From assembly GCA_965248915.1 (NCBI GenBank), contig OZ252216.1, positions 2,857,807-2,921,806 on the forward strand: DNA of 64,000 bases. The letters run 5' to 3'. The notes beneath the pieces were generated by a model that did no database searches, was not told where the DNA came from, and worked only from the letters and a program-made list of their open reading frames with translations. Both the position numbers and the translations under genes were made by a program. Each line of letters opens with the position of its first letter. Within the stretch, counting starts at the first letter, position 1. Below, piece after piece: positions 3,962-40,518 of this stretch. Source of the stretch: Alphaproteobacteria bacterium (lineage in GTDB: Bacteria > Pseudomonadota > Alphaproteobacteria > M2410).

Positions 3962-4911
3962 GCCGGCGCCTCCGCATCTGACGTCGTTAAAGACCGAAAG
4001 ACTTCATCGAGCCGACCCTCTTCAGCGTAAAGCGCTTTGACATTCCAACTTTTCTCAACCGCCAAGGTGCTGACGTCTTCAATCAGCAGACGAGCTGGAT
4101 CGCTCGGGAACAGCGTGAACCTCTGAGCTTGACCTGGACCGTCACTTTCGACCATCTCAGCAATCCCTGAGAGTGAAGACAAAGAAGACCGGGCCGCTTC
4201 TGCCTCATTTGCAGCCACATCCATGGTGACCGCGTTGTGATAACGCGAGCGCGCTGCTAACTCTTCAGGCGTACCGTCGGCAACAATAAGTCCTCGGTCA
4301 ATAATAACTGCACGCGAACAGATCGCTTCTACTTCTTCCAGAATGTGGGTCGAGATAATGATCGCTTTTTCGGAAGCCATTTCGCGAATAAGCTCACGCA
4401 CCGCATGCTTTTGGTTTGGATCGAGACCATCTGTGGGCTCGTCCATGATGAGGACCGGTGGATTGTGCAAGATGGCTTGAGCCAACCCAACCCGGCGCTT
4501 GAACCCCTTTGACAATGTATCAATGGTTTGGTCCAGAACGCCGCCGAGTTGGGTGCGTTCAACCGCAAGCGCCCTTGCCTTCTCAGCCTCGGATCCATCC
4601 AGTCCTCTTGCATCGCAGATGAAGGCAAGAAACTGGCGCGGCGTCATTTCGCCGTAAGCCGGCGCCCCTTCCGGCAAATACCCCATCTTCGTTTGTGCTT
4701 GATTGGAGTGGGAGGCGACGTCGATCCCGCAAACCTCAACCCGTCCGGCGGATGGCGCCAAGAACCCTGTGATCATCCGCATGGTCGTGGATTTTCCTGC
4801 ACCATTCGGCCCAAGAAACCCAAGCACCTCTCCCTTCCCCACATTGAAGGAAAGACCATTGACCGCGGTAAACGATCCGAACTTTTTGACGAGACCTTCA
4901 ATTTCGATCAT
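3958..4911 (-). CDS. gldA: ABC transporter ATP-binding protein (GldA-like)
   Basis: Walker A GPNGAGKST, ABC signature LSKGFKRRV, Walker B VLIMDEPTDGLD. Confidence 0.85.
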   Translation of the reverse strand: MIEIEGLVKKFGSFTAVNGLSFNVGKGEVLGFLGPNGAGKSTTMRMITGFLAPSAGRVEVCGIDVASHSNQAQTKMGYLPEGAPAYGEMTPRQFLAFICDARGLDGSEAEKARALAVERTQLGGVLDQTIDTLSKGFKRRVGLAQAILHNPPVLIMDEPTDGLDPNQKHAVRELIREMASEKAIIISTHILEEVEAICSRAVIIDRGLIVADGTPEELAARSRYHNAVTMDVAANEAEAARSSLSSLSGIAEMVESDGPGQAQRFTLFPSDPARLLIEDVSTLAVEKSWNVKALYAEEGRLDEVFRSLTTSDAEAPA

Positions 4912-27175: not shown

Positions 27176-27200
27176 TTGTTCAAAAGCTTGGTGGGTTTTT

Positions 27201-28202
27201 CTATTCACCCGCCGGGACTGTGAGCGCTTCAAGTGATTCAAAGAGTCTCTCGAAGTGCATTTGAATCAGCGTGCCCTCAAGGACCAACTCTGCCCAAGGA
27301 AAAACGACAACTAGTAAGAGAATAAGCATGATCGCGATTGGAGCGAAGACCAGCACCTGCCCAGTCCGTGTCAATCTAACAATCCTACCTTTGAGTTGCC
27401 CAAACTCTAGTGGCTTAGGGTCTCCAGACGCATCCGTTTCATTCAGAGTATTCAGGTACTCACCCACGCCAAATCTTCTTGCAAGCCAACTGTTATAGCC
27501 AATCAGACCAACGATAATGGGATACATCAAAACAAACAGGGCACCGAATGACAGAGCCACAATCCATGTCATCAAAATTGAGGTCTCGAGAAAAAGTCGC
27601 GTGAAATCATGCCCGAGGTTTGCGCCAGAGATAAGCACAGGAATGACACTGGCATAGTACACGCTGCCAAGCGCGAAAACAGCCGACAGAACTACCATCA
27701 ATGGCATCACTTTTATAATTTCCTTCACAGCCCATTGCTGTCTATCAGGCACCGCAACACCTCGTGGGTACGGATTGGCTTTTCCAGACAGACCGAATTG
27801 TATAGTTGGGAGTATTGCCATCAACGCTGGAATCCAAGCGCCGACAAATATGAACCCATTATCGTCGAGCAATAGTGGAAGCAACAACAATCCTGGCCAC
27901 AGCCCCACTAGAGGAATGAGAAGCAGCATTCCGGGCCAGAAGGCGAAGTTCTTAACTGCCAACAAACCAAGCGCCAGCAGAACAACAAGTGCACCCGTCA
28001 CAATCAGATGAAGACTAAAGACCGGAACAAACGACGCGTGTGAGGGAATAGGGTCATCAAACAAGGCGAACAGGGGCGCCGAGTCATTGATCCCCGCCCA
28101 AATTGCCCAGCAGCCGATAGCGACATTGACCGCGCCAAGCGCCAAAAACAAAATCCGCCGCACAGGACTTTCATTCCCAACGTTCGGCTCAATCTTTTCC
28201 AT
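27201..28202 (-). CDS. Hypothetical polytopic membrane protein (paralog A)
   Basis: 333 aa; lower-GC codon usage; shares architecture and a C-terminal module with 30169..31173. Confidence 0.5.
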   Translation of the reverse strand: MEKIEPNVGNESPVRRILFLALGAVNVAIGCWAIWAGINDSAPLFALFDDPIPSHASFVPVFSLHLIVTGALVVLLALGLLAVKNFAFWPGMLLLIPLVGLWPGLLLLPLLLDDNGFIFVGAWIPALMAILPTIQFGLSGKANPYPRGVAVPDRQQWAVKEIIKVMPLMVVLSAVFALGSVYYASVIPVLISGANLGHDFTRLFLETSILMTWIVALSFGALFVLMYPIIVGLIGYNSWLARRFGVGEYLNTLNETDASGDPKPLEFGQLKGRIVRLTRTGQVLVFAPIAIMLILLLVVVFPWAELVLEGTLIQMHFERLFESLEALTVPAGE

Positions 28203-28459
28203 CTATCTCGCCACCCAACAACTTGAACCAAGCACCTTAACTAAACCTACAGTTGAAACAAAAGGCCGTCAATACAGACCCCAGCGAGAGCGCCTTGCCA
28301 TCACGGGGTGCTCCTCCTAGGCTTCAAGCCAACAAACAAAAGACAAAACCACCCGGGGGTTCTCATGGCGCATCGCCCTTCCCTGTTCTTCGTGCTTATC
28401 CCTTTTCTTTTTGTCACCGCCTGCGGCCAAGAAACGGTTACATCACCTTCGGAGGATGA

Positions 28460-29085
28460 ATGACCTACGCGCTCTACGCACGCAAAGGCTGGGGCTCTGC
28501 CATCTCAGAGGCCATGCTGGCCTACGCAAGCCTCGACTACGAACTTAGAGATCCCAAAGGCAACCGCGCCAAAGGCGTGCCTCCTTTGAAGGAAATCAAT
28601 CCTCTCGTTCAATTCCCAACCCTCGTCTGCCCGGACGGGCACATCATGACCGAAAGTGCCGCCATCCTTTTCCATATCGACGACATGGCACCAAAAGCAG
28701 GTCTCGTGCCAAAAAGAACGCGAAAGAGCGACGCGACTTTTTGCGGATACTTCTGATCATCGTCGGCGCCATCTACCCGACATTCACTTACGCCGATTTT
28801 CCCGGCAGATATGTCTCATCGAAGAAGGCGCAGACCGAACTCGTGACTTCCAGCAAACAAAAGCGCAACGAACTCTGGCTCGACATCGAAAATCTCATCG
28901 ATCCAGATCCTCATGCCCTCAGCAAGCGATTCACCGGTCTTGATGTTTATGCCGCCGTAATGACCCATTGGGGTCCTCGAAGACGGTGGTTCACAGAGCA
29001 CTGTCCGAAACTGATGTCCGCCGCCAAAGCCGCCGAAGGCATCGACACACTACAGCCCGTTCTTCATAGGAATTTCAAATCATGA
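28460..29085 (+). pseudogene. Glutathione S-transferase, frameshifted (N-terminal thioredoxin-like domain in frame 2, C-terminal helical domain in frame 1)
   Basis: ORF 28460..28756 carries a GST N-terminal domain (YARKGWGSAISEAMLA...VPTLVCPDG...ESAAIL). ORF 28741..29085 carries a GST C-terminal domain. Continuity needs a frame change near 28700-28745. Confidence 0.6.
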
Positions 29086-29465
29086 CAGACCCGGTCAACC
29101 ACAAAGGTGGGTGTCACTGCGGTGCCGTCAAGTTCGAGGTCCGCGCGGGCGCACGCATTGAGGTGGTTGACTGCAACTGTTCCGTCTGTCGAATGACCGG
29201 TTTCAAACACTTGATCGTGCCGAAGGAAGATTTCACGCTTCTCACCTCAGAAGAAGCGCTCACCGACTACCAGTTCGGAACCAAGACCGCCCACCACTTG
29301 TTTTGCAAAACCTGCGGCATCAAATCTTATTACCTCCCCCGCTCACATCCAGATGGCGTGTCAGTCAATGTGAATTGCCTCGAACCGGTAACCATCAAAG
29401 CCATGGAACTAACCCCCTTTGACGGCGCCAATTGGGAAGACGCCATCGACGACCTCACCGACTAG
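29082..29465 (+). CDS. GFA family protein (glutathione-dependent formaldehyde-activating enzyme / CENP-V-like)
   Basis: GGCHCGAV...CNCSVCRMTG zinc-binding Cys pattern. Confidence 0.85.
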   Translation: MTDPVNHKGGCHCGAVKFEVRAGARIEVVDCNCSVCRMTGFKHLIVPKEDFTLLTSEEALTDYQFGTKTAHHLFCKTCGIKSYYLPRSHPDGVSVNVNCLEPVTIKAMELTPFDGANWEDAIDDLTD

Positions 29466-29597
29466 GAGTTTCAGGTGCCGCAAAACATCTTTGTTCCAAT
29501 GGTGTACAATAACAAAGCGCTTCCAGGAAAAGTGGAGGCCGGTTTTCCGGCCGGAAGCGCGTTAGAAAAACAGGCGTATTCGAGCTAGCCAGAGGAG

Positions 29598-30164
29598 TTG
29601 ATAGAGATGACGAACGTTTTCGTGCCGATGGCATACAATAACGCCTGGGCCAACCATCGCCTGATTTCCGCATGTGAAAAACTCACCCAAGAAGAATTTG
29701 AAGCCGAACGCGTGAGTTTCTTCCCGACGCTCAAGGCAACACTCAATCACAATCTCACCGTCGACCGGTTCTATGTGGATGCCCTTGAAGGTGGCGATCT
29801 TGGCTCAGCGGCCTTCGACGAGGATGAACCTTGCGTGACACCGCGTGACCTGAAAGAAAAACAAGAGAAGGTGGACCGACGGCTCATCCAGTTCTGCAAA
29901 AGTTTGAGGCCTGACGATCACACCGCAATCACCGCCATCAATCGCGGGCCTTACGTGCAAGAAGAGCTCACCGACCGCCTGCTCCTCCATCTCTTCCAGC
30001 ACCAAATTCACCACCGCGGTCAGGTCCACGCCATGCTCTCAGGCACGTCTGTCAAACCACCGCAACTCGACGAGTTTTTGATGTCTGGCGAACGCGCCCG
30101 CAACGCCCGCGCGGGGGACATGGAAGCCTTAGGTTGGACGGAAGAGGAGATTTGGGGAACCTAG
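29598..30164 (+). CDS. DinB/YfiT-like (DinB_2) family metal-dependent thiol transferase-like protein
   Basis: NNAWANHRLISACEKLTQEEF...TLNHNLTVDRFYVDAL...HQIHHRGQV, i.e. the His-triad DinB_2 pattern. Confidence 0.7.
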   Translation: MIEMTNVFVPMAYNNAWANHRLISACEKLTQEEFEAERVSFFPTLKATLNHNLTVDRFYVDALEGGDLGSAAFDEDEPCVTPRDLKEKQEKVDRRLIQFCKSLRPDDHTAITAINRGPYVQEELTDRLLLHLFQHQIHHRGQVHAMLSGTSVKPPQLDEFLMSGERARNARAGDMEALGWTEEEIWGT

Positions 30165-30168
30165 GTCA

Positions 30169-31173
30169 TCAAGGTCTGGGCTCAACAAACAGACCATCGA
30201 CTGACTCGTAGTTGTGCTCCCAGACCGCAAAGAAGAGCCGACTCAACCAACTCTCTGGATTATCAATGATGAAGAATTCAATTCCAACAATCAGAGCCAG
30301 CATCACTAAGATCGCAAGCAGCCAAATTGTGATTTGAATTCGAACTCCTGTCTTGGAGACCTTGATGTACTGTTGGCCTTGTGATGTTCTCGGCAGAAAA
30401 CGGTGCTCCATGGGATGTTTCCGGTAGACCCCCACTGCAAAATGTCGAGATATCAATCCACCTGACCAGATGAAGGTCGCAAGCAATAGGATCATCGGGA
30501 AGGTGGAAATCACCACAAACGGCGTCATCGCAATGCTGCTTGTAACGACAAGCGAAACCAATGCAATGCCAAACCCTTCGATAGGAGCAAGTCCCTTCAC
30601 GAATATTGAGAACTCTATCGACGGCAATATATTGAAGACGGAAAATAAAAACGCCGAAAAAAGTACAATGAAAGGCAGAACAATAACTGGTGGCCCAGGA
30701 ATCGCGGCACGCCATGGCATTGCAATTGAATCTGGGTATAGAATTTGAGGTCGTAGCCCGACGGCCGAAGATATACCATGTAACAAAGCGACTGCTGCAA
30801 GACCGGGAAAGTGCAATTCGAAGAATGGAATGACAGTCATGGTCACTCCAGCCGATATCTCCACTAAGAATCCCATCAACATCAAGAGAACGATCAAGAT
30901 CGAAAAGAACTGCCGTCTAACTGAATTCCAAAGTACGCCCAATGAGAAGACGCTCAAAATTACACTCAGCCACAAATGGATCGTCATGAGACGCACGGCG
31001 TGCTCTGTCGGGTACGGAAGGGCAGACATCGGCGAATAGGGAACCGCGACACCAAGTGCCGCTCCAACGGCCCAGGCAAAAGCCACCACATTGAGCCCCA
31101 TCAGGATGAACAATGTACGCTTCCGCGTCTTCGAAAGCACAGGATCGACAGGATCGATAAGTTCCACGCGCAC
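30169..31173 (-). CDS. Hypothetical polytopic membrane protein (paralog B)
   Basis: 334 aa; low GC; architecture parallels 27201..28202. Confidence 0.5.
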   Translation of the reverse strand: MRVELIDPVDPVLSKTRKRTLFILMGLNVVAFAWAVGAALGVAVPYSPMSALPYPTEHAVRLMTIHLWLSVILSVFSLGVLWNSVRRQFFSILIVLLMLMGFLVEISAGVTMTVIPFFELHFPGLAAVALLHGISSAVGLRPQILYPDSIAMPWRAAIPGPPVIVLPFIVLFSAFLFSVFNILPSIEFSIFVKGLAPIEGFGIALVSLVVTSSIAMTPFVVISTFPMILLLATFIWSGGLISRHFAVGVYRKHPMEHRFLPRTSQGQQYIKVSKTGVRIQITIWLLAILVMLALIVGIEFFIIDNPESWLSRLFFAVWEHNYESVDGLFVEPRP

Positions 31174-31222
31174 CCCACACCAAAACCGTGAGGGGAACCC
31201 ATCTCACACTAGGGAATTCTCG

Positions 31223-31444
31223 TCAAATCTCCATGGGGATCTTGGGACGGAAGAAGTTGAGGCGTAGCGCGTCAATCTTGGCGACAACTTCCGCCTCAAG
31301 CGCACCCAACGCTTCTGCATCAACAATCTCTTGAAGCTCTTGCCGATTCTTCACGCCGAGAACGAGCGTGTCGACCCCGTCCATTTGCAAGGCATAGCGA
31401 TGGGCCAGGATGGCCGGGTTTTCCCCGAGCTCTGCACACAAGGC
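31223..31444 (-). pseudogene. Orphan duplicated 3' end (last 74 codons plus stop) of the aldo/keto reductase gene at 32772..33776
   Basis: 222 bp nearly identical to 32772..32993, with 2-3 synonymous mismatches in the first 30 nt. It begins exactly at the stop codon. Confidence 0.9.
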
Positions 31445-31520
31445 TTTGTTATGTAACTCGCAAAAATCCCAATTTCTAGGTTTGTATAAGGTATTTTCGG
31501 AATTATGCGGCACGAGGTGG

Positions 31521-31600
31521 CTTGTGATTCACCAGTGATTCACAAACCTATTTGTATTTCATATTTTGAGTTTTATGATTCACAAACATATTTGTGTTAC
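31521..31600 (+). promoter_or_regulatory. AT-rich promoter/operator region upstream of fic with repeated TGATTCAC / TGATTCACAAAC(C/A)TATTTGT motifs
   Basis: TGATTCAC at 31524, 31536 and 31576. Two 20-nt near-identical repeats at 31536-31555 and 31576-31595. Imperfect palindrome ACAAACATATTTGT. Confidence 0.45.
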
Positions 31601-31660
31601 ATAAATGTTTGTTTATAAGCCACAATTGATTGCACCAATTCAACCCTTAGAATAAGATGG

Positions 31661-32767
31661 GTGTCCATGCAACCATATACTCCAGAAGCGCTACCGCCAA
31701 GAGATCTCGACTGGGCGCAACTCATCGAGGGCTTAAGCAATGCCAACCAAGCTATTGCTCGCTATGACGGAAGGTTGGAATCACTCCACAATCCAGCAGT
31801 CCTGCTGTCACCGCTTACAATGCAGGAAGCAGTCATGTCTTCTCGCATCGAAGGTACCGTAGCAACGTTGAGTGACGTGCTAGAATACGAAGCTGGACAA
31901 ACAGACATTCACCCCGAAAAAAGAGAAGACATTCATGAAATTCTAAACTACCGCACAGCGATGAATGTCGCTGTTCGAGAATTGGTATCGAGTCCTATTA
32001 CCCTAAAGTTGATCAAGCGCCTGCACTTTATTCTCATGGACAGCGTTAGAGGTCGTAACAAGAGAAGGGGAGAAATTCGTGTAATACAAAACTGGATCGG
32101 CCCCAAAGATCGCCCAGTTGAAGAGGCGTATTTCATTCCCCCGATTGCTCTTGATCTCGAAAGACATCTTACCCACTTCGAAACATATGCCAATTCTCGC
32201 CAGCCAGACGCACTCATCCAGGCGGGCCTTCTTCATGCTCAATTCGAACTACTTCACCCATTTCTCGATGGTAATGGAAGGCTCGGACGACTTCTCATCC
32301 CGCTCTTCCTATCCAAGCAGGGCGTATTGCAGTCGCCAATGTTTTACATTAGTGGCTATCTGGAAACACATCGGCAAGAATACTATGACCGACTACAAGC
32401 CCTGTCCGAGCAAAGAGATTGGACCGGCTGGCTCAACTTCTTTCTGAAGGCCATCACGTCGCAATCAGACGAGAACTCCGGGCATATACAGGCAATTCGC
32501 ACTCTCTATGAATCGATCAAGGTCAATGCAATCGAAGAGATAAGGTCACAATATTTCATTCAAGCGATCGACACAATATTTACCCGCCCATATTTCACGA
32601 CAACGCTGTTCACCGAAGAGTCAAGCATACCCAGACCAAGCGCAATCAGGTTATTGAATGCTCTTGAGGAACTTGACATCATACTTCAACTCCGGCCGGC
32701 GAGCGGGAGTCGGCCCGCCGTCTATTCATTCCCGGAGCTTCTTTACATCGCCGAACGAAACGACTGA
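31661..32767 (+). CDS. fic: Fic family protein (AMPylase-type, class II with N-terminal inhibitory helix)
   Basis: Fic active-site motif HPFLDGNGRLGR; inhibitory motif SSRIEGT (S-x-x-x-E-G) near the N-terminus; lower GC than surroundings. Confidence 0.9.
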   Translation: MSMQPYTPEALPPRDLDWAQLIEGLSNANQAIARYDGRLESLHNPAVLLSPLTMQEAVMSSRIEGTVATLSDVLEYEAGQTDIHPEKREDIHEILNYRTAMNVAVRELVSSPITLKLIKRLHFILMDSVRGRNKRRGEIRVIQNWIGPKDRPVEEAYFIPPIALDLERHLTHFETYANSRQPDALIQAGLLHAQFELLHPFLDGNGRLGRLLIPLFLSKQGVLQSPMFYISGYLETHRQEYYDRLQALSEQRDWTGWLNFFLKAITSQSDENSGHIQAIRTLYESIKVNAIEEIRSQYFIQAIDTIFTRPYFTTTLFTEESSIPRPSAIRLLNALEELDIILQLRPASGSRPAVYSFPELLYIAERND

Positions 32768-32771
32768 CCCC

Positions 32772-33776
32772 TCAAATCTCCATCGGGATTTTGGGACGGA
32801 AGAAGTTGAGGCGTAGCGCGTCAATCTTGGCGACAACTTCCGCCTCAAGCGCACCCAACGCTTCTGCATCAACAATCTCTTGAAGCTCTTGCCGATTCTT
32901 CACGCCGAGAACGAGCGTGTCGACCCCGTCCATTTGCAAGGCATAGCGATGGGCCAGGATGGCCGGGTTTTCCCCGAGCTCTGCACACAAGGCGCGGTAG
33001 GGCTCAGCACGGATGTAATCCTGCATATCCGGCTCGTTGACATCCATCGACCGGTCAATTTGTGCCGTTAGTGCGCCTGCTTGCACAGCGCGAATGCCCA
33101 TGACACCCACATCATTGTTCTTCGCGGTGCGGATGATATTGCGCGGCTCCGGTGGTTCCTCATAGCGACGAATGCCGCCGGGCGAATCCATCAAGTTCGT
33201 GATCGCTTGAACGACCGCCGGCTTTGTCTCTTGTCGAAGTGCCGCCATGATGGTGGCGGGAAGGCCTGTGCCGGTAAGGCCCCAAGCGCCGATGAGCCCG
33301 CGCTCCTTCAAGTTTTCAACAGCAGGGATGAAAGCGTCTAAATAGTTCGACCACGACACCGTCCAGCGTTCTTGGGTATCACTGTTTTGCGCCATCACAT
33401 AATTGTCGGGGATGACCTGACAATGCAGGAAGAAGAGATCAACGCGGTCTTGTTTGAGGGCTTCGAAACTTCGCATGAGTGAGCGTTCAATCTTGGCCAA
33501 CATGTCATCTGGCGGCAATGTGCCGGTCAGGCATTTGGTGGTGACGCACACACCCTCTGGCAACCTGCCGCCAAAGGTCTCCCCCACCACGCTTTCTGCT
33601 TCGCCGCGCCCATACATCGGCGCCAGGTCAAGGAGCGTAATGCCAGCATCAACAGCCGCCTTCACCGTTGCGACCGCTTCTGCCCGCGTCGTTTCACCCC
33701 AAATTTGTCCAAGTCCGCCACCGCCCAGCGTCAGCGCACTTACAGGGCCAAAGCCCCCAAGCTCTCTCATGTCCAT
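32772..33776 (-). CDS. Aldo/keto reductase family oxidoreductase
   Basis: 334 aa with AKR fold motifs (GLTGTGLPA; C-terminal module). Its 3' 222 bp are duplicated at 31223..31444. Confidence 0.8.
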   Translation of the reverse strand: MDMRELGGFGPVSALTLGGGGLGQIWGETTRAEAVATVKAAVDAGITLLDLAPMYGRGEAESVVGETFGGRLPEGVCVTTKCLTGTLPPDDMLAKIERSLMRSFEALKQDRVDLFFLHCQVIPDNYVMAQNSDTQERWTVSWSNYLDAFIPAVENLKERGLIGAWGLTGTGLPATIMAALRQETKPAVVQAITNLMDSPGGIRRYEEPPEPRNIIRTAKNNDVGVMGIRAVQAGALTAQIDRSMDVNEPDMQDYIRAEPYRALCAELGENPAILAHRYALQMDGVDTLVLGVKNRQELQEIVDAEALGALEAEVVAKIDALRLNFFRPKIPMEI

Positions 33777-33832
33777 GGGGTAATGTTTAGCAGAGTCCGG
33801 CGCCCAAAGGCATCAGGTCTTCACGATAATTT

Positions 33833-34507
33833 CTAACTAACGACCCCGTATTGGTCGTAAAGATCGGTCCGGTAGTAATCACGTTGCTGTTCGAGCTCGA
33901 CGAGATCCTGCTGCAAATACTTGATCTCCTTTTCGAGATCATCCTCAGCTTTCGACAGCTCGACCACTTTGATCACCAACTTCATGCGGGCCAAATCGGT
34001 CATATCCCCTTCGACGATCTCCCACTGGGTCTCTTCGATCTCATGGATGATGTCCTCAAGGTCAGACCGGTGCGACCGGATCGTGGCTTGTTGGGCAGCC
34101 ACTTTCCGGTTGTATTGATAGAGTTGACGCCCCGCCTGATAAGCTGCCGAAAACACGCCGTCGCTGTCCTCAGGGCACACATTGGCGTAAGCACCACCAC
34201 GAATACCGACTTGCAGGCCATTGGGTTCGCGACAATATGTCTGAAGGCCCTCTTCGCGGCCGTCCGAATAGGCAAGGAAGTTGGGTGTCACACCATGGGC
34301 CGCACACGCTTTGCGGTGACGCGCGATGTGATCTGCTGAACGGCCCTGAACGCCGTCCTCAAAGCCAACCGCATTCCAATCAGCGGCGACACATTCACTC
34401 TCGCTCATAGAGGCACACGCACTCAACAAAGAGGCACCCCCCAGCATGGCAACAAGCGCAATTGACTTCAGTCCCGTCATCATCCGTACCCTTCTTATTT
34501 GAATCAA
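33833..34507 (-). CDS. DUF2799-domain lipoprotein
   Basis: Lipobox LLSAC; the ECVAADWNAVGFEDGVQGR repeat is typical of DUF2799. Confidence 0.55.
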   Translation of the reverse strand: MIQIRRVRMMTGLKSIALVAMLGGASLLSACASMSESECVAADWNAVGFEDGVQGRSADHIARHRKACAAHGVTPNFLAYSDGREEGLQTYCREPNGLQVGIRGGAYANVCPEDSDGVFSAAYQAGRQLYQYNRKVAAQQATIRSHRSDLEDIIHEIEETQWEIVEGDMTDLARMKLVIKVVELSKAEDDLEKEIKYLQQDLVELEQQRDYYRTDLYDQYGVVS

Positions 34508-34591
34508 ATTCGAACGGTTTCCCGTTCAAACCTGCATCAATGAGAAGTGTAGGAGGGAGGGACTAACAATTGCTTAGACTTACTTAAGAGT

Positions 34592-35848
34592 TTAACGATA
34601 CCCGCGAATATCCCAAGCACCTTCATGACCAAGCGCGAGGCGCGCGATCTTCTTTGACATGTTGTAACCACCGCGCTTGCGGCTGACGAAATCCAGGAAC
34701 CCGCCAGTATTGGTAAGAATGACAATACCGTCACCGGTATCTGGATCAATGACGAAAAGACCCTGGTAGCCTGGGTTACTGCCCCAGTGCCAATAGGTCG
34801 TGCGCTCATCAGACATATCGATGCCGATGCCCGCTGCCCAGGACGTGCGTTTGTTGATTTCAACCATCGGCGCCAACATGGCATCACGCGTTTCCACTGA
34901 AACAAGAGTGGGCTTGATGAGCTCCACCGCGAAACGCGCGAGATCATGAACCGTAGTCTCAAGGCTTGAGGCCAACATCACCTCGTTTTCTACCGAATTG
35001 ATGGGAACGGTAACCCGGGACATGGCAAAAAGAGCGCTAGCGCCAATAACAAAGATGGTCAGGACGGAAAGAAAGAGACCGCGAACAAAGCCGAAAGATC
35101 TAAAGAAGAAGGCCGCACCAAAGAGAACAATAACACTGAGAATGATCAACATGGTTCTGCCACGTTTTTGATCGACCTCTTGTGCCCGGCCTGACAACAG
35201 ACCAAACACCAGATCCACATGGCCAGTCGCCATCTGTTCCGTCACCGCCGGTTGAAACCGTGCACTTGTCATATCAAGAGGCGTAAAAATTCGCTCCTCA
35301 ATCCAGGCGTTCGCCGCCACGCCTGTTTCCGCTTCAATCATGGATTGGACCACATGATAGCCCTGGCCTGCATAGGAAAAGTCGGGCTCATCTGAACAGG
35401 CAGCGACAAATTCCTCTGCAAAGATATCGTTGCCAAGCCCAGCTGTGTGGGAAAGGGCCTGACCCAAAGTGGGGCGTGCGCAATCCTTCTTGAGTGTTAG
35501 TCGCGCATCCTCAATCGGGTCATTTAAGGACATGCGCCCCTCTTCGATCAGCGCAAAGGATGCGTAGGCCGCAATCATCTTGCCGTTCGACGCGGCCTGG
35601 AACTCGGTTTCCATGTCTGTGAGTTCTAGGGTCTCCATGTTCTTGACCCCAAACATCTCTACCCAAGCAATCTCACCATCGCGAATAAGCGCAATGCCCG
35701 CGCCCGCGACATCTGCCTCCTTCATGAGGTCAGGGATCGCCGCGCGTAGCTCATCAATCGAGACAGGCTCCGCACTGGCGCCAGCAAGAGAGCCGGTAAA
35801 TCCAAAGGCGAGCATCAAAGGGGTTAGAATTCTGAGAAAGAAAGTCAC
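34592..35848 (-). CDS. Serine hydrolase (beta-lactamase/PBP-like transpeptidase fold)
   Basis: Signal peptide. S-x-x-K-like motif FQAASNGK; class C beta-lactamase-like fold with a C-terminal membrane segment. Confidence 0.65.
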   Translation of the reverse strand: MTFFLRILTPLMLAFGFTGSLAGASAEPVSIDELRAAIPDLMKEADVAGAGIALIRDGEIAWVEMFGVKNMETLELTDMETEFQAASNGKMIAAYASFALIEEGRMSLNDPIEDARLTLKKDCARPTLGQALSHTAGLGNDIFAEEFVAACSDEPDFSYAGQGYHVVQSMIEAETGVAANAWIEERIFTPLDMTSARFQPAVTEQMATGHVDLVFGLLSGRAQEVDQKRGRTMLIILSVIVLFGAAFFFRSFGFVRGLFLSVLTIFVIGASALFAMSRVTVPINSVENEVMLASSLETTVHDLARFAVELIKPTLVSVETRDAMLAPMVEINKRTSWAAGIGIDMSDERTTYWHWGSNPGYQGLFVIDPDTGDGIVILTNTGGFLDFVSRKRGGYNMSKKIARLALGHEGAWDIRGYR

Positions 35849-35851
35849 AAG

Positions 35852-36751
35852 CTAGTCCAACGCCGCCGGAACCGGCACGCCTGCTTGGCGACACGCGGCC
35901 ACCACCGTGTTGCGCAAAAGGCAGGCAATGGTCATCGGCCCGATGCCACCGGGCACAGGTGTGATCGAGCCCGCAACGTGCTTAGCCGCCTCAAAATCAA
36001 CGTCTCCGATGAGACGGGTCTTCCCTTCGCCTTTCTCTGGCGCAGGGATCCGGTTGATGCCGACGTCCAAAACGCAAGCACCAGGCTTCACCCAATCGCC
36101 TTTGATGAGATGGGCCACGCCAACAGCCGCAACCAAAATATCAGCACTGCGGCACACTGCATCCAAATCGCGTGTGCGGGAGTGGGCCATGGTCACCGTG
36201 CAGTTTTCATTGAGCAAGAGTTGTGCAACAGGTTTGCCAACCAGGATGGACCGGCCAACCACAACCGCGTTAAGCCCTGTGAGATCGCCGACCGCATCTT
36301 TGGCCAACATCACCGTCCCAAAAGGTGTGCAAGGCACCATCGTGTCTTGTCCGAGCAAGAGCTTGCCTGCACTCACAGGGTGCAAGCCATCAACGTCCTT
36401 CGCGGGCAGGATGGTTTCCACCACCAGTTTCTCATCAACCTGTTTCGGCATCGGCAACTGACATAAGATGCCGTGCACCGCCGGGTCGGCATTGAGCTTT
36501 TCAACCATCGCCACCACCTCTTCATGAGGTGTGTCTTCAGGCATGGTGTGCGTCCATGAATTCATGCCCGCCTCTAAGGTCTGTTTGCCTTTGGAGCGCA
36601 CGTAGACCTGGCTGGCCGGGTCCTCCCCGACGAGCACGACAGCGAGGCCGGGCGTCAGGTCATGGGAAGATTTCAATTCCGCAACGATCTCGCCGATGCG
36701 GGCCCGCAACTTTTCAGCAAAGGCCCGACCATCAATAACTCTAGCGCTCAT
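35852..36751 (-). CDS. folD: Bifunctional methylenetetrahydrofolate dehydrogenase/methenyl-THF cyclohydrolase
   Basis: Conserved motifs GKPVAQLLL and [10 protein letters not shown]. Confidence 0.92.
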
Positions 36752-37559: not shown

Positions 37560-37635
37560 GGGGCCGTAGCTCAGTTGGGAGAGCGCTACGTTCGCAACGT
37601 AGAGGTCAGGGGTTCGATTCCCCTCGGCTCCACCA
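37560..37635 (+). tRNA. tRNA-Ala (anticodon CGC)
   Basis: Manual cloverleaf: acceptor GGGGCCG/CGGCUCC with the G3:U70 alanine identity pair. D arm GCUC-AGUUGGGA-GAGC. Anticodon loop UUCGCAA. T arm AGGGG-UUCGAUU-CCCCU. Encoded CCA end. Confidence 0.9.
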
Positions 37636-38145: not shown

Positions 38146-38235
38146 TCACACAAAAGGATGCGGATAATCGGGCGGGCGCCCTTGAAATTCCAAGACGGCG
38201 GGCTTCTGGACCACCCCTTCATCTACAGTGATCAC
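38146..38235 (-). pseudogene. Diverged orphan copy of the 3' end (about 29 codons plus stop) of the gene at 39245..40387
   Basis: Minus-strand translation VITVDEGVVQKPAVLEFQGRPPDYPHPFV* versus the gene C-terminus NTDEGVIQKPAILEFQGRAPDYPHSFV*. About 80% nucleotide identity. Confidence 0.8.
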
Positions 38236-38296: not shown

Positions 38297-39025
38297 TTAC
38301 CACATTGCGTTTGGGGTCTTCTTTTGTTCGTGCAAATCCCCGCCGCTTATCCGGTCCCAGAACCGGCCGCCGACCAATTGCTCTGCGTCATAAGTGACAA
38401 CAAGATATTCACCGAGATCGCCAGTTAACTCTCGATTCTCCATCTCAAAAGTCCAAAGCGACAATCTTCCTTTTGCATCTTCGGCAAGAACACTTTTGAT
38501 GAATGCATGGGGAACAGGCACATCGATGCCATAGTCGTCATTCTCATCCCCAATTGTCTCCACTTTCTCTCCAAAGTAAAAGACCGGGGCTGTCAAGACA
38601 TAGGTCTCAAGGATATCCTCTCGATCATTCAATACCCGCACTGCCTTCTCAAGCTCTCGCCACTTGCGTCGATTGAATTCCGGTTTTTGCGGTGACATGT
38701 TTGACAGCAAAAAGGTTTCGCTATTTTGAATCTCCTGAATGTCTTGGTTTGCACTTGCAACAAGATGGCCGCGATCAAATCCGCTACCGCTGTAAGCACC
38801 AAGACCCGCGCGGAAACGTTTTGGTATTCTTGTTTCCGCCCGAAAGTGGTCTTGGCGTTCTACTTCTGAAAGGAGATGTTCGTTTCGATTTACAATTTCC
38901 AGCGTCCATTTTGCTTGTCTGAAGTACCATGAATAGCCAATCGTAAAAAATCGACCCGTTAGTATCTCATCACATACGGGAGCTCCGTAACGAAGTTCAG
39001 GTTGAATCTGAAATGGATCATTCAT
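38297..39025 (-). CDS. DNA/RNA non-specific endonuclease (Serratia nuclease/EndoG family; DRGH motif); alternative start at 39097
   Basis: FDRGHLVASANQ catalytic motif with a downstream SNMSPQ (N) motif. No signal peptide. Lower GC than neighbours. Confidence 0.8.
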   Translation of the reverse strand: MNDPFQIQPELRYGAPVCDEILTGRFFTIGYSWYFRQAKWTLEIVNRNEHLLSEVERQDHFRAETRIPKRFRAGLGAYSGSGFDRGHLVASANQDIQEIQNSETFLLSNMSPQKPEFNRRKWRELEKAVRVLNDREDILETYVLTAPVFYFGEKVETIGDENDDYGIDVPVPHAFIKSVLAEDAKGRLSLWTFEMENRELTGDLGEYLVVTYDAEQLVGGRFWDRISGGDLHEQKKTPNAMW

Positions 39026-39244
39026 ATCAATTCTCTTTCGGTCATCATCGTTCAATTGCTCGTGGCCAGCCAATCGACAAACCACACATGAAAACATCTA
39101 ATAATTGTTATTCCACAGAAAAGCAACCTTCGACAATTGAGCAAACTCATTCCTATGTCAATATCAATCTAGTGAACGTGACGGCGAATGCGGGCGGAAG
39201 ACATAGTAGGTTTCTACGGCACTTCAAATTTCACGATCCCAGAA

Positions 39245-40387
39245 TTACACAAACGAGTGCGGATAGTCGGGCGCGCGCCCTTGAAATTCCAAGATGGCGG
39301 GCTTCTGTATCACCCCTTCATCTGTGTTGATCGCCTGGCGGATGGATTCACATCCCTGCCACTCATCGCGGCCAGCAAGAACCGTTTCGACATGAGGCAC
39401 TAGCGCTTCCGAAAGGCACCGCGAGGCACTCTCCCAAAGATAACAAGGGGTGTGATCGACCGCGTAGTACCCCACATCGCCGACCCAAAACATGGGATCA
39501 TCAAAACCCGTCGGCTTGGCAAAATAAAACCCCATGCCTTCGTCGCAACTCACATCAATCACGAGCGCCCCCGCTTTCAGGCTGTCTCTTTCCTTTTCGG
39601 TAACGAAGAGAAGCGGGTTGTTGGGATCTTGAAAAATGCCATTGATCAAAATGTCCGTTTCGCTAATGAGATCGGACAACGGTCTCTCCGTGCCATCGAC
39701 TGCACATGCCACCAACCGCGGCTCACCGGCACGGCCGTCGCGCAAGCGCATATAGCTACACCCCAAAACCTCCTCACGGATCACATAGTCCGGTTGCTTC
39801 GTGCAAACCGTGATGTCTTGAAAACCGAGCGCCTGCAGTGCACTGATGGCCCCGAAGCTCACCGCACCGAACCCAAAAATGACAACCTTACGGTTGTTAC
39901 CGTAGTGTCCATTGATGCCGCTCAAATGGGTTGCATGTAACACCGCGCAATATCCCGCCAGTTCATTGTTCTTGTAAAATGTGTGACGACGGGGCCGACC
40001 GCGTGGGCTCCAAACATACATGTCCTCAAAGGCAATGAGCGTGAGTTTCCGGTCGATAGCAGCTTGGGTAATGTCCCCTTGTTGGGCGCAATGGGGATAG
40101 CCCCACAAAATGCCCCCATCAGGCATTTCCTCAAGATCTTTGAGCATAGGCTTGGCAAGAATGGCCGCCCCAATGTCCGACAATATTTCCCGGCGCGACG
40201 TCACCCCGCCTGTCATCTCAGTGATCTGTGCATCAGACCATCCAAACCGCTGGCCGTAGCCTTCTTCAAAGACAAGATGGCGCCGAACGTCTTCAGACAG
40301 TCGCTCCAAATGATCCGGATGAAGCGGAACGCGCGTTTCATTTTTCTTTCGTGACGTTCCGATCACGCCAAATGTCAATTGGGTCAT
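39245..40387 (-). CDS. Alanine dehydrogenase/PNT-family NAD(P)-binding protein (N5-(carboxyethyl)ornithine synthase-like)
   Basis: AlaDH/PNT-type N-terminal and Rossmann domains (VVIFGFGAVSFGAISAL). Start at MTQLTFGVIG with an AAGGAA RBS. Confidence 0.6.
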   Translation of the reverse strand: MTQLTFGVIGTSRKKNETRVPLHPDHLERLSEDVRRHLVFEEGYGQRFGWSDAQITEMTGGVTSRREILSDIGAAILAKPMLKDLEEMPDGGILWGYPHCAQQGDITQAAIDRKLTLIAFEDMYVWSPRGRPRRHTFYKNNELAGYCAVLHATHLSGINGHYGNNRKVVIFGFGAVSFGAISALQALGFQDITVCTKQPDYVIREEVLGCSYMRLRDGRAGEPRLVACAVDGTERPLSDLISETDILINGIFQDPNNPLLFVTEKERDSLKAGALVIDVSCDEGMGFYFAKPTGFDDPMFWVGDVGYYAVDHTPCYLWESASRCLSEALVPHVETVLAGRDEWQGCESIRQAINTDEGVIQKPAILEFQGRAPDYPHSFV

Positions 40388-40518
40388 GTCATTCCTTATG
40401 CAAACCAAATTCACGCCGAAATCAAACGGCGACTAGCATCTACGATTCTGAAGAGATCATGGCCTAACGCAGCAGTAGGCGCAATTGCTGCTTGTGGGGC
40501 CTATGCGCGCACCACGGT

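What the first reader, a model, noticed from the sequence alone, without database searches (positions are those of the whole stretch)
31223..32993. Fic AMPylase cassette flanked by a 222-bp direct repeat of the aldo/keto reductase gene's 3' end
The last 222 bp of the AKR gene (32772..32993, starting exactly at its stop codon) recur at 31223..31444, also starting at a stop codon. The two copies differ only by 2-3 synonymous substitutions in the first 30 nt. Between them lies a 1.33 kb lower-GC segment carrying a single cargo gene, fic. That gene has HPFLDGNGRLGR and an N-terminal SxxxEG inhibitory helix, plus an AT-rich promoter region of about 30% GC. A duplicated gene 3' end starting at the stop codon is the attL/attR signature of an element integrated site-specifically into the 3' end of a protein gene, as seen for tRNA-targeting islands. 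No integrase or excisionase is present. The synonymous divergence suggests one copy came in with the element from a different lineage.
Basis: seen in the sequence. Interest (0 to 1): 0.8.

Follow-up and report, generated by a model that had tools for sequence, protein, structure and literature searches.

The report
Defence gene flanked by duplicated gene end
A single anti-phage defence gene (SoFic, a Fic AMPylase) sits just downstream of an aldo/keto reductase gene, bracketed by two near-identical copies of that gene's last 222 bases and with no recombinase nearby, which looks like an integrase-free insertion anchored on the gene's 3' end rather than a classical integrative element.

Summary
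The 222-nt stretches 31223-31444 and 32772-32993 are 220/222 identical. Both begin at a stop codon, and both differences are synonymous. They bracket a 1,327-bp low-GC insert that holds one gene with its own AT-rich promoter/operator. That gene is a full-length SoFic-type class II Fic AMPylase, a described single-gene anti-phage system.

The att-site reading is only partly supported. I found no integrase, transposase or phage gene among the Pfam-scanned ORFs of the 64 kb. None of 68 other AKR loci carries an orphan AKR end. The 30169-31173 ORF is a membrane protein, not an AKR paralog.

The closest described phenomenon is "insertion with long target duplication", known for restriction-modification genes. 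I favour one-ended homologous (Campbell-type or homology-facilitated) insertion of a fic + AKR-3' fragment from a related fic+ strain. One relative (L001) has a 62%-identical fic abutting AKR, while nearer relatives lack fic.

About 13% of SoFic loci in metagenomes (9/68) are bracketed by direct repeats of 36 nt or more, against 1% of control windows (7/624); in about six the repeat is an adjacent gene's end. Two loci show arrays of SoFic cassettes separated by copies of a peptidase gene's 3' end. A second such insertion, carrying a nuclease gene, lies 6 kb away in this window. The mechanism is inferred and no conspecific empty site exists.

The parts
31223..31444 (-). Orphan copy (copy A) of the last 222 nt of the AKR gene, including its stop codon. 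It keeps what is presumably the native downstream flank (31174-31222).
   Evidence: 220/222 identical to 32772-32993, encodes the same 73 aa plus stop. tblastn of AKR aa 261-334 hits it at E=4e-42.
31223..31513 (-). Chimeric 96-aa ORF made of 22 novel residues fused to the AKR C-terminal 74 aa. Probably a by-product of the junction rather than a gene.
   Evidence: ORF list. The junction at 31444/31445 is seen.
31445..31666 (+). AT-rich 5' region of the cassette (33.8% GC). It holds two ACAAAC-N4-TTTGT palindromes (31542-31555 and 31582-31595) inside a 40-nt tandem repeat (31536-31615), plus two sigma70-like promoter matches (31539-31567 and 31626-31653). Inferred to be the SoFic promoter/operator.
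   Evidence: (family D4). The same ACAA-N6-TTGT palindromes lie upstream of homologous fic genes in L087 and L089, and a TGCACAA-N3-TTGTGCA palindrome lies upstream in L175. The window and L087 upstream regions are alignable. SoFic binds its own promoter within 100 bp of the start codon (bioRxiv 10.64898/2026.07.09.737422).
31667..32767 (+). fic: a SoFic-type class II Fic AMP-transferase of 366 aa, a single-gene anti-phage defence system. It is the only cargo gene.
   Evidence: Pfam Fic_N 6.7e-26 and Fic 1.5e-15. PADLOC SoFic model PDLC03963 at E=2.7e-108, covering 7-359 of 361 positions. PDB SoFic entries 3EQX/3ZCN/9TC4 at E about 1e-32 over aa 22-343. Motifs HPFLDGNGRLGR and SSRIEG. GC3 is 0.50 against 0.58-0.69 for neighbouring genes.
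32772..32993 (-). Copy B of the repeat: the 3' end of the intact AKR gene. Its stop codon lies 4 nt from the fic stop codon.
32772..33776 (-). Intact aldo/keto reductase gene (334 aa), the target or anchor gene.
   Evidence: Pfam Aldo_ket_red 1.7e-51. Full-length orthologs at 60-78% identity in Parvibaculaceae and related MAGs, next to folD in nearly all of them (blaC in L084).

Best explanation
The insert is a self-contained SoFic defence cassette (own promoter/operator plus fic) placed immediately 3' of the AKR gene by an integrase-free event of the kind described as "insertion with long target duplication".

The route I favour has four steps.
1. In a closely related donor strain, fic already lay directly downstream of AKR. 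That arrangement is shown to exist in relative L001.
2. A DNA fragment spanning fic-upstream, fic and the last 222 or more nt of AKR entered a fic-less cell.
3. It recombined through the AKR 3' homology on one side only. The other end joined illegitimately, either by prior circularisation followed by a Campbell-type single crossover, or by homology-facilitated illegitimate recombination across sister chromosomes.
4. The result is an intact AKR fused to one copy of the 3' end, the cassette, and the displaced other copy as an orphan next to the old downstream flank.

Host RecA-type recombination does the work, not an element-encoded recombinase. The 222-nt repeats should also allow RecA-dependent loop-out of fic plus one repeat as a circle.

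The cargo is expected to behave like SoFic. It would be autorepressed through its C-terminal wHTH at the palindromic operators, and on phage infection it would AMPylate EF-Tu and stop translation (abortive infection).

Shown: the anatomy, the cargo's identity, the absence of recombinase genes among the scanned ORFs, fic-less orthologous loci, a relative with fic abutting AKR, and enrichment of such repeats around SoFic genes.
Inferred: the donor, the transfer route, the recombination pathway and the regulation.
For: (1) Anatomy. The repeat is 220/222 identical and starts exactly at the stop codon in both copies, and AKR stays intact.

(2) No integrase, transposase or phage gene was found among the Pfam-scanned ORFs of the 64-kb window. 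The insert has no terminal inverted repeats, and there is no tRNA nearby.

(3) The cargo is compositionally foreign. GC3 is 0.50 against 0.58-0.69 for neighbours.

(4) The three closest AKR relatives (78, 74 and 72% identity; L082, L084, L086) and L002 have one AKR 3' end and no fic. The AKR-argG interval varies in content between relatives.

(5) L001 has a 62%-identical fic convergent with AKR, with a 13-nt spacer. Its sister locus L002 (77% nt identity) has AKR followed directly by the next gene. Donors with fic abutting AKR therefore exist, and fic presence is patchy.

(6) Similarity ends exactly at the stop codon. This also holds for the second repeat in the window (TGA versus TAA stops, orphan still in frame with I/V-type changes), for L143 (GAA TGA versus GAG TAG) and for the M24 arrays. 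This is what coding homology between two alleles would give, with one allele arriving with the cargo.

(7) In L146 the 414-nt hsdM repeat differs mainly at third codon positions (8:6:26). Its orphan is fused in frame to what reads like an hsdS 5' fragment (my reading of the translation), so the insert came from a homologous operon.

(8) The duplicated length varies (58-95 nt) at one and the same target.

(9) SoFic loci are enriched for bracketing direct repeats: 10/68 against 15/624 control windows overall, and 9/68 against 7/624 for repeats of at least 36 nt (Fisher p=3e-6).

(10) There is precedent. RM genes are known to be inserted with 46-423-bp target duplications and no mobility genes (PMC2853133).
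Against: - No conspecific or near-identical genome is available. The best AKR match outside the source genome is 78%. There is therefore no true empty site and no identified donor.
- With only two differences between the copies, an in-situ duplication cannot be told apart from a donor-borne copy.
- A trans-acting recombinase elsewhere in the 3.5-Mb genome cannot be excluded.
- The illegitimate junction at 31444/31445 has no independent support, because the donor's flanking sequence is unknown and microhomology cannot be assessed.
- In the L109 array, copies c2-c4 resemble one another more than the functional copy does. That fits in-situ duplication or gene conversion as well.
- Some of the repeat-positive SoFic loci are of a different kind: operator repeats in L175, a multi-copy 37-mer in L145, and an intergenic terminator-like repeat in L120.
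- fic next to AKR in both the window and L001 could also be old vertical inheritance followed by several losses.
Confidence: 0.55

Rival explanations
1. Remnant or satellite of a site-specific integrative element. The 222-nt copies are attL/attR. The element carried its own replacement AKR 3' end, as e14 does for icd. The integrase has been lost (a CIME-like remnant) or acts in trans from elsewhere in the genome.
For: A duplicated gene 3' end that starts at the stop codon, with synonymous differences, is what e14/icd-icdC shows (PMC13626634). CIMEs are att-flanked elements without recombination genes (PMC5704250). fic lies at the AKR 3' end in two lineages, the window and L001.
Against: No recombinase gene was found among the Pfam-scanned ORFs of the 64 kb. 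The insert is only 1.3 kb with no trace of other element genes. Identity runs over the full 222 nt rather than a short core with divergent arms. No orphan AKR ends or islands occur at this site in 68 other AKR loci. L001 has no second AKR fragment. Analogous SoFic arrays have variable repeat lengths and no integrase between their conserved flanks.
Confidence: 0.15
2. In-situ "long target duplication" in the strict sense. A fic fragment was inserted at a staggered break, or by template switching or sister-chromatid misjoining, at AKR's 3' end. Both repeat copies derive from the resident AKR, and the two differences arose later.
For: The copies are 99% identical. In Furuta et al. the two flanking copies are more alike than either is to the empty site (PMC2853133). 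L101 c1/c2 are 58/60 identical and L109 c2-c4 are 55-56/60 identical to one another.
Against: The repeat boundary falls exactly on the stop codon, here and in several other cases. That needs an extra assumption of selection. Both differences are synonymous and lie 6 nt apart. Older examples keep reading frame and stop codon in the orphan. Third-position bias is seen in L146.
Confidence: 0.2
3. Purely local rearrangement of an ancestrally resident fic. A tandem duplication of [fic + AKR 3' end] was followed by deletion of one fic copy, or the AKR end was copied across fic by ectopic conversion. No horizontal transfer was involved in making the repeat.
For: fic homologs at 62% identity lie in the same neighbourhood in related hosts (L001, L087), so fic may be an old resident. 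Fic divergence (62%) is comparable to AKR divergence (68%) between the window and L001.
Against: The model needs a deletion ending precisely at the stop codon, with no trace of fic sequence left of copy A. fic is absent from the three closest AKR relatives. fic GC3 is 10-20 points below its neighbours in all three lineages, which argues against long residence.
Confidence: 0.07
4. Assembly artefact: the repeat or the junctions are mis-assembled.
For: Read-level support cannot be checked here.
Against: The two copies differ at two positions and have four distinct, clean junctions. The repeat (222 nt) and its spacing (1.5 kb) are short relative to long reads, and the source is a single 3.54-Mb contig. 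A second, more diverged repeat of the same architecture lies 6 kb away.
Confidence: 0.03

Closest known systems
"Insertion with long target duplication" of restriction-modification genes (Nobusato et al. 2000, Gene 259:99, cited from memory; Furuta, Abe and Kobayashi 2010, PMC2853133)
   Same: A small insert of one or a few defence or addiction-type genes, flanked by long direct repeats of local chromosomal sequence. Repeats are 46-423 bp there and 222 bp here. No transposase or integrase is present, composition is foreign, and some repeats overlap the 3' end of a flanking gene.
   Different: The cargo here is a Fic AMPylase, not a nuclease-containing RM system. This removes the double-strand-break property that those authors suggested as the common cause. 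The repeat here begins exactly at a stop codon. No conspecific empty-site genome is available to prove target duplication.
e14 and phage 21 integration into the 3' end of icd in E. coli, giving the icd/icdC pair (PMC13626634; Hill et al. 1989)
   Same: The target gene stays functional because a replacement 3' end is contiguous with it. The displaced or alternative 3' end persists as a C-terminal pseudogene on the far side of the insert. Differences between the copies are conservative or synonymous.
   Different: e14 is a 15-kb prophage with its own integrase and SOS-induced site-specific excision. Here the insert is 1.3 kb, and no recombinase was found in the scanned ORFs.
CIMEs, cis-mobilizable elements derived from decayed ICEs or IMEs (PMC5704250)
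   Same: Flanked by direct repeats that include the end of a target gene, with no integration or transfer genes of their own.
   Different: CIMEs keep short att sites recognised by the integrase of a related ICE. They are found at sites repeatedly used by such ICEs. No ICE, IME or integrase is seen at AKR in 68 loci.
Campbell-type single-crossover integration, homology-facilitated illegitimate recombination, and transformation-generated merodiploids (PMC3240628, PMC3784515; titles and abstracts only)
   Same: One homologous anchor is enough to insert adjacent foreign DNA. Single-crossover integration of a circle duplicates the homologous segment on both sides of the insert. No element-encoded enzyme is needed.
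   Different: These are laboratory-defined processes. Their footprints have rarely been pointed out at natural defence-gene insertions.
SoFic single-gene anti-phage defence system (PADLOC SoFic; PMC12249575; bioRxiv 10.64898/2026.07.09.737422)
   Same: Full-length match to the SoFic model and structure. It has the catalytic motif, the N-terminal inhibitory motif and an AT-rich upstream region with palindromes.
   Different: It is roughly a 30%-identity relative of S. oneidensis SoFic. No downstream small AS1-like gene is possible, since only 4 nt separate the fic stop from the AKR stop. Activity, target and phage protection are untested for this protein.
Integron gene cassettes
   Same: Single-gene cassettes, arranged in arrays separated by repeats in loci such as L101 and L109.
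   Different: The repeats are pieces of a host gene's coding 3' end, not attC hairpins. No IntI is present. The cassette carries its own promoter.

Membership tests
SoFic / class II Fic AMP-transferase | Fic catalytic motif HxFx(D/E)GNGRxxR | tested here: met
   HPFLDGNGRLGR at aa 197-208. Pfam Fic at 1.5e-15.
SoFic / class II Fic AMP-transferase | N-terminal inhibitory helix motif (S/T)xxxE(G/N) located before the Fic core (class II) | tested here: met
   SSRIEG at aa 58-63. Pfam Fic_N at 6.7e-26.
SoFic / class II Fic AMP-transferase | Full-length SoFic architecture, including the C-terminal wHTH domain | tested here: met
   The PADLOC SoFic HMM matches aa 2-363 to model positions 7-359 of 361 at E=2.7e-108. 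PDB SoFic chains align over aa 22-343. Pfam SoFic-like_C itself was not reported for this protein, though it was for the L101 paralog.
SoFic / class II Fic AMP-transferase | AMPylation of EF-Tu, toxicity and phage protection | not testable with these tools
   Known only for S. oneidensis and E. coli SoFic.
Site-specific integrative element (att-flanked island, IME or CIME) | Tyrosine or serine recombinase encoded in or next to the element | tested here: not met
   No recombinase Pfam hit among the 66 window ORFs scanned (all 60 greedy-list ORFs of at least 123 aa, plus six shorter).
Site-specific integrative element (att-flanked island, IME or CIME) | Same target site used recurrently by related elements in other genomes | tested here: not met
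   None of 68 other AKR loci has an orphan AKR 3' fragment. Only L001 has fic at this site, and it has no repeat.
Site-specific integrative element (att-flanked island, IME or CIME) | Short identical core with a fixed crossover point | tested here: inconclusive
   The window has 222 nt of near-identity with no recognisable core. Analogous M24 arrays show variable 5' boundaries of 58-95 nt.
Site-specific integrative element (att-flanked island, IME or CIME) | Recombinase-dependent excision to a circle | not testable with these tools
   Needs PCR or read data.
Insertion with long target duplication (criteria of Furuta et al. 2010) | Insert under 20 kb, flanking direct repeat over 30 bp, and no mobility-related genes in or beside the insert | tested here: met
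   Insert of 1,327 bp, repeat of 222 bp, and no mobility genes.
Insertion with long target duplication (criteria of Furuta et al. 2010) | The repeat aligns to a single-copy sequence in an empty-site genome of the same species | tested here: inconclusive
   Only distant relatives are available, at 60-78% AKR identity. All have a single AKR 3' end and no fic. No conspecific genome was found.
Insertion with long target duplication (criteria of Furuta et al. 2010) | Cargo is a restriction-modification system | tested here: not met
   The cargo is SoFic. This is why the case is a new member rather than a listed one.
Integron cassette | attC recombination site and an IntI integrase with attI | tested here: not met
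   The repeats are AKR coding sequence. Inverted repeats: one unrelated 20-nt pair in 28000-36000, none of 40 nt or more in the window. No integrase is present.
IS element or transposon | Terminal inverted repeats, a short target duplication and a transposase | tested here: not met

The most novel reading that the evidence does not exclude
SoFic genes, and other single-gene defence or nuclease cargo, may spread through an integrase-free cassette system. Each cassette would travel with a copy of the 3' end of the conserved gene it sits behind. It would insert by one-ended recombination, displace the resident 3' end as an orphan, and by repetition build integron-like arrays at gene ends, as at the M24 peptidase gene in L101 and L109. 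This would be a general route by which defence genes enter "core" hotspots that lack any mobile-element genes. A stronger version is that the SoFic protein itself, through its wHTH domain and operator, promotes the event.
Probability: 0.2. Interest if true: 0.8.

Novelty: new member of a known kind. Interest (0 to 1): 0.55.

Why it matters
Many anti-phage systems sit in chromosomal hotspots between conserved genes, with no integrase or transposase in sight, and how they get there is unresolved. This locus preserves a fresh footprint of such an arrival: a 99%-identical duplicated gene end that starts at the stop codon.

The same footprint recurs around SoFic genes in unrelated metagenomic contigs and around a nuclease gene 6 kb away in this window. 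If the footprint reflects one-ended homologous insertion, the question becomes testable. One could look for recA dependence, circular fic-plus-repeat molecules, and empty and filled alleles in populations.

It would also extend "insertion with long target duplication" beyond restriction-modification genes. That would remove the proposed need for a cargo-encoded nuclease.

Tried and rejected
- Exact-protein look-ups of the window's Fic and AKR found no encoding contig on record. The source genome and any conspecifics could not be retrieved, and cluster look-up gave no name.
- The genome-contig scan with AKR returned nothing above 66% identity. The protein database gave 78% at best. A true empty site could not be obtained.
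- I searched for further AKR fragments in the window with tblastn and short-word blastn and found none.
- I searched L001 for a decayed AKR fragment or a remnant of L002's intergenic region and found none.
- The integron/attC idea for the repeats in L101 and L109 was rejected once the repeats were read as the coding 3' end of an M24 peptidase gene.
- I checked for an integrase at the far end of the L101 and L109 arrays. The candidate roughly 340-aa ORFs are zinc alcohol dehydrogenases.
- An Rfam scan of 30000-34000 gave no hits.
- The viral-contig scan gave only 8 Fic loci, too few to replicate the enrichment.
- A search for relatives of the CEOS/AlaDH-like gene, to find an empty site for the second repeat, gave only about 65% homologs from many phyla.
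- Literature searches found no paper linking Fic or SoFic genes to flanking target duplications.
- I considered the idea that the 30169-31173 ORF is an AKR paralog, or a paralog of 27201-28202. It was rejected (Pfam; BLASTP E=0.005).
Full report
**1. The observation**

The 222-nt stretches 31223-31444 and 32772-32993 are a direct repeat with 220/222 identity, 1,549 nt apart. The same repeat scores E=1e-112 in the flank-against-flank test. None of 40 control positions along the window gives any bracketing repeat in that test.

The mismatches are at repeat positions 13 and 19. In the AKR reading frame (minus strand) they are AAG/AAA (Lys) and CCC/CCG (Pro), so both copies encode the same 73 residues plus a stop. 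Both copies begin exactly at the stop codon. Sequence on either side of both copies is unrelated.

The segment between the copies (31445-32771) is 1,327 bp at 46.3% GC, compared with 56.8% for the repeat and 57.4% for AKR. It consists of a 222-bp AT-rich leader (33.8% GC) followed by one gene.

**2. The cargo**

The gene is 31667-32767 on the + strand. The ATG at 31667 agrees with the database protein P0001 and with homolog N-termini. Evidence for its identity:
- Pfam Fic_N and Fic.
- The catalytic motif HPFLDGNGRLGR and the class II inhibitory motif SSRIEG.
- An alignment over aa 22-343 to the solved Shewanella SoFic structures.
- An end-to-end match to the PADLOC "SoFic" defence model at E=2.7e-108.

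Published work shows several properties for SoFic. It is toxic and confers abortive-infection-type phage defence (PMC12249575). [quoted passage not shown]

The window's leader contains two ACAAAC-N4-TTTGT palindromes (31542-31555 and 31582-31595) inside a 40-nt tandem repeat, plus two sigma70-like promoter matches. Equivalent palindromes lie upstream of homologous fic genes in L087 and L089. A 28%-identical homolog in L175 has TGCACAA-N3-TTGTGCA. The window and L087 leaders are alignable. I infer that the leader is the cassette's autoregulated promoter and that it travels with the gene. There is no room for the small downstream AS1-like gene described for E. coli SoFic, because the fic stop lies 4 nt from the AKR stop.

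**3. Surroundings and the search for a recombinase**

I scanned 66 of the 70 ORFs in the greedy ORF list with Pfam: all 60 of at least 123 aa and six shorter ones; four ORFs of 90-96 aa were not scanned. The window is ordinary chromosomal sequence. It encodes argG, folD, methylmalonyl-CoA mutase, ABC transporters, signal peptidases and similar genes. No integrase, transposase, relaxase or phage gene was found. The only tRNA is tRNA-Ala at 37560.

It shows no meaningful similarity to AKR or to the other membrane ORF at 27201-28202. No third AKR fragment exists in the window.

**4. Relatives**

The source genome is a singleton in the databases. The next best Fic is 62% identical and the next best AKR is 78%. 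Relatives are Parvibaculaceae-like alphaproteobacteria.

Nearly all of them have folD immediately upstream of AKR; L084 has a blaC-like gene there instead, as in the window. All have a single AKR 3' end. The content between AKR and argG varies: nothing in L084; Fe-ADH, GFA and AAA_28 in L082; and a beta-lactamase-like gene in Parvibaculum. None of 68 other AKR loci holds an orphan AKR 3' fragment.

fic is absent from the three closest AKR relatives. It is present, at 62% identity, in L001. There it is convergent with AKR with a 13-nt spacer and no repeat. L002, which is 77% identical to L001 at the DNA level across folD-AKR, has AKR followed after 113 nt by the next gene. A third 62% homolog (L087) lies in the same neighbourhood but upstream of the GFA gene.

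In all three hosts, fic GC3 is 10-20 points below that of its neighbours. The fic gene is therefore patchy, compositionally foreign and associated with this variable interval within one host clade. The 99%-identical repeat in the window must be far younger than the 62% divergence between these Fic proteins.

**5. Is the architecture peculiar to this locus?**

A metagenome scan with a Fic alignment returned 80 loci at about 50% identity. Direct repeats bracket fic within 1.5 kb on each side in 10 of 68 testable loci. The corresponding figures are 5 of 141 for displaced windows in the same loci and 10 of 483 for windows in the AKR loci. For repeats of at least 36 nt the counts are 9/68 against 7/624 (Fisher p=3e-6).

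In most positive loci the repeat is the end of an adjacent host gene:
- L143: 110 nt of an hsdR 3' end.
- L111: an hsdS end.
- L146: 414 nt of an hsdM 3' end around fic plus a TIR gene.
- L117: the 5' part of dtd.
- L101 and L109: 58-95 nt of an M24 peptidase 3' end.

L101 and L109 are arrays: the full peptidase gene, then two or three different Fic-family cassettes, each followed by another copy of the peptidase 3' end with its own in-frame stop. One cassette is inverted and one is truncated. The conserved flanks are the peptidase and a zinc-ADH gene, with no integrase between them.

A minority of the positive loci are of another kind: operator repeats in L175, a multi-copy 37-mer in L145, and a terminator-like intergenic repeat in L120. 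About six of the 68 testable loci are clear gene-end duplications, plus two found outside the 1.5-kb test (L146, L111).

**6. A second case in the same window**

The only other direct repeat of at least 40 nt in the 64 kb is 38146-38233 / 39245-39332, with 75/88 identity. It brackets a single low-GC gene, a DNA/RNA non-specific endonuclease at 38297-39097 (GC3 0.44). That gene lies immediately downstream of a CEOS/AlaDH-like gene at 39245-40414.

Again both copies start at a stop codon (TGA in the orphan, TAA in the gene). The orphan stays in frame with conservative changes such as I/V. Both long repeats in the window therefore share one architecture with different cargo. This points to a host-level or general process rather than something specific to Fic.

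**7. Mechanism**

The closest described phenomenon is "insertion with long target duplication" of restriction-modification genes. Those cases have 46-423-bp repeats, no mobility genes, foreign composition and an unknown mechanism (PMC2853133). The window meets those operational criteria except for two: the conspecific empty site, which is unavailable, and the nature of the cargo.

Several features favour the idea that one repeat copy came in with the cargo, rather than a staggered-cut duplication of resident sequence:
- Similarity ends exactly at the stop codon in the window (twice), in L143 and in the M24 arrays. That is where two alleles of a gene stop being homologous when one of them is followed by cargo.
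- Differences between copies are synonymous or conservative, including alternative stop codons.
- Third-position bias is seen in L146 (8:6:26 by codon position).
- The L146 orphan is fused in frame to what reads like an hsdS 5' fragment (my reading of the translation), so the insert came from a homologous operon.
- A relative with fic abutting AKR exists (L001).

The variable repeat length at one target, the absence of recombinase genes, and the lack of recurrent use of the AKR site argue against a site-specific att system of the e14/icd or CIME type.

I therefore favour one-ended homologous insertion. This means either Campbell-type integration of a circularised fic + AKR-3' fragment, or homology-facilitated illegitimate recombination. 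The donor would be a closely related fic+ strain. I put this at about 0.55.

The rivals are:
- Strict in-situ duplication (about 0.2). It is supported by the near-identity here and by the mutual similarity of copies c2-c4 in L109.
- A decayed or trans-mobilised site-specific element (about 0.15).
- A purely local rearrangement of an old resident fic (about 0.07).
- An assembly artefact (about 0.03).

**8. What is shown and what is inferred**

Shown:
- The repeat and its boundaries.
- The intact AKR gene and its orphan fragment.
- The cargo's family and motifs.
- The absence of mobility genes among the scanned ORFs of the window.
- fic-less orthologous loci.
- A relative with fic abutting AKR.
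- Enrichment of bracketing repeats around SoFic genes.
- A second example in the window.

Inferred:
- The donor, the transfer route and the recombination pathway.
- Autoregulation at the palindromes.
- EF-Tu AMPylation and phage defence by this particular protein.

**9. Verdict**

It is an insertion at a gene's 3' end, but most likely not a site-specific integrative element. I class it as a new member of a known kind: long-duplication insertion, here with a SoFic defence gene. The broader pattern is preliminary but statistically supported, and it would matter if it holds up.

Noticed in passing
window 38146-38233 and 39245-39332, bracketing 38297-39097: This is the second gene-3'-end duplication in the window. 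The last 88 nt or so of a CEOS/AlaDH-like gene (39245-40414, minus strand) recur 1,099 nt away with 75/88 identity. Both copies start at a stop codon (TGA versus TAA). Together they bracket a single low-GC Endonuclease_NS gene (GC3 0.44). The orphan stays in frame with conservative changes.
   Followed up: partly
L101 4567-8590; L109 143-4767: These loci hold arrays of SoFic-family cassettes downstream of an M24 peptidase gene. Each cassette is followed by another 58-95-nt copy of the peptidase 3' end with its own in-frame stop. No integrase lies between the conserved flanks (M24 and a zinc ADH). L109 has one extra inverted Fic cassette relative to L101.
   Followed up: partly
L146 3554-3992 and 7094-7507: A 414-nt hsdM 3' end is duplicated at 89% identity, with mostly third-position differences. 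The duplication surrounds an insert carrying SoFic and a TIR-domain gene. The orphan copy is fused in frame to what reads like an hsdS 5' fragment (my reading of the translation; not tested by Pfam).
   Followed up: partly
L143 2981-3094 / 4310-4423; L099 256-293 / 1537-1574; L111 460-496 / 1687-1723: Within type I R-M or Abi operons, the duplicated upstream-gene end carries the overlapping stop/start junction. As a result the fic start codon and the displaced downstream gene's start codon sit at the same position in the two copies. Translational coupling appears to be preserved for both genes.
   Followed up: partly
window 31536-31615; L087 269-352; L089 about 770-790; L175 4880-4950 and 6075-6150: ACAA-N6-TTGT or GCACAA-N-TTGTGC palindromes are conserved upstream of SoFic-family genes down to 28% protein identity. 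They are likely the operator for the C-terminal wHTH domain.
   Followed up: partly
window 27176-32771, compared with L082, L084, L086 and L004-L047: The AKR-argG interval is a variable hotspot in Parvibaculaceae-like genomes. In L084 AKR is followed directly by argG. In the window it holds two low-GC membrane ORFs with no Pfam hit (27201-28202 and 30169-31173), a GST, GFA, DinB and fic. In addition, a beta-lactamase-like gene plus a DUF2799 gene (33833-35848) separate AKR from folD here. These two genes are adjacent in nearly all relatives.
   Followed up: partly
window 28460-29085: A glutathione S-transferase gene appears frameshifted. The GST_N part is 28460-28756, and the rest continues in another frame at 28741-29085. 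This could be a pseudogene or a sequencing error.
   Followed up: no
L145 2945-2981, 3872-3909, 5711-5746, 7193-7229: A 37-nt repeat (GGGGGCGGTTGGGCAGGTTCAGAACTTTTGACTGG) occurs four times around a SoFic gene. Its nature is unknown; it could be REP-like or a cassette boundary.
   Followed up: no
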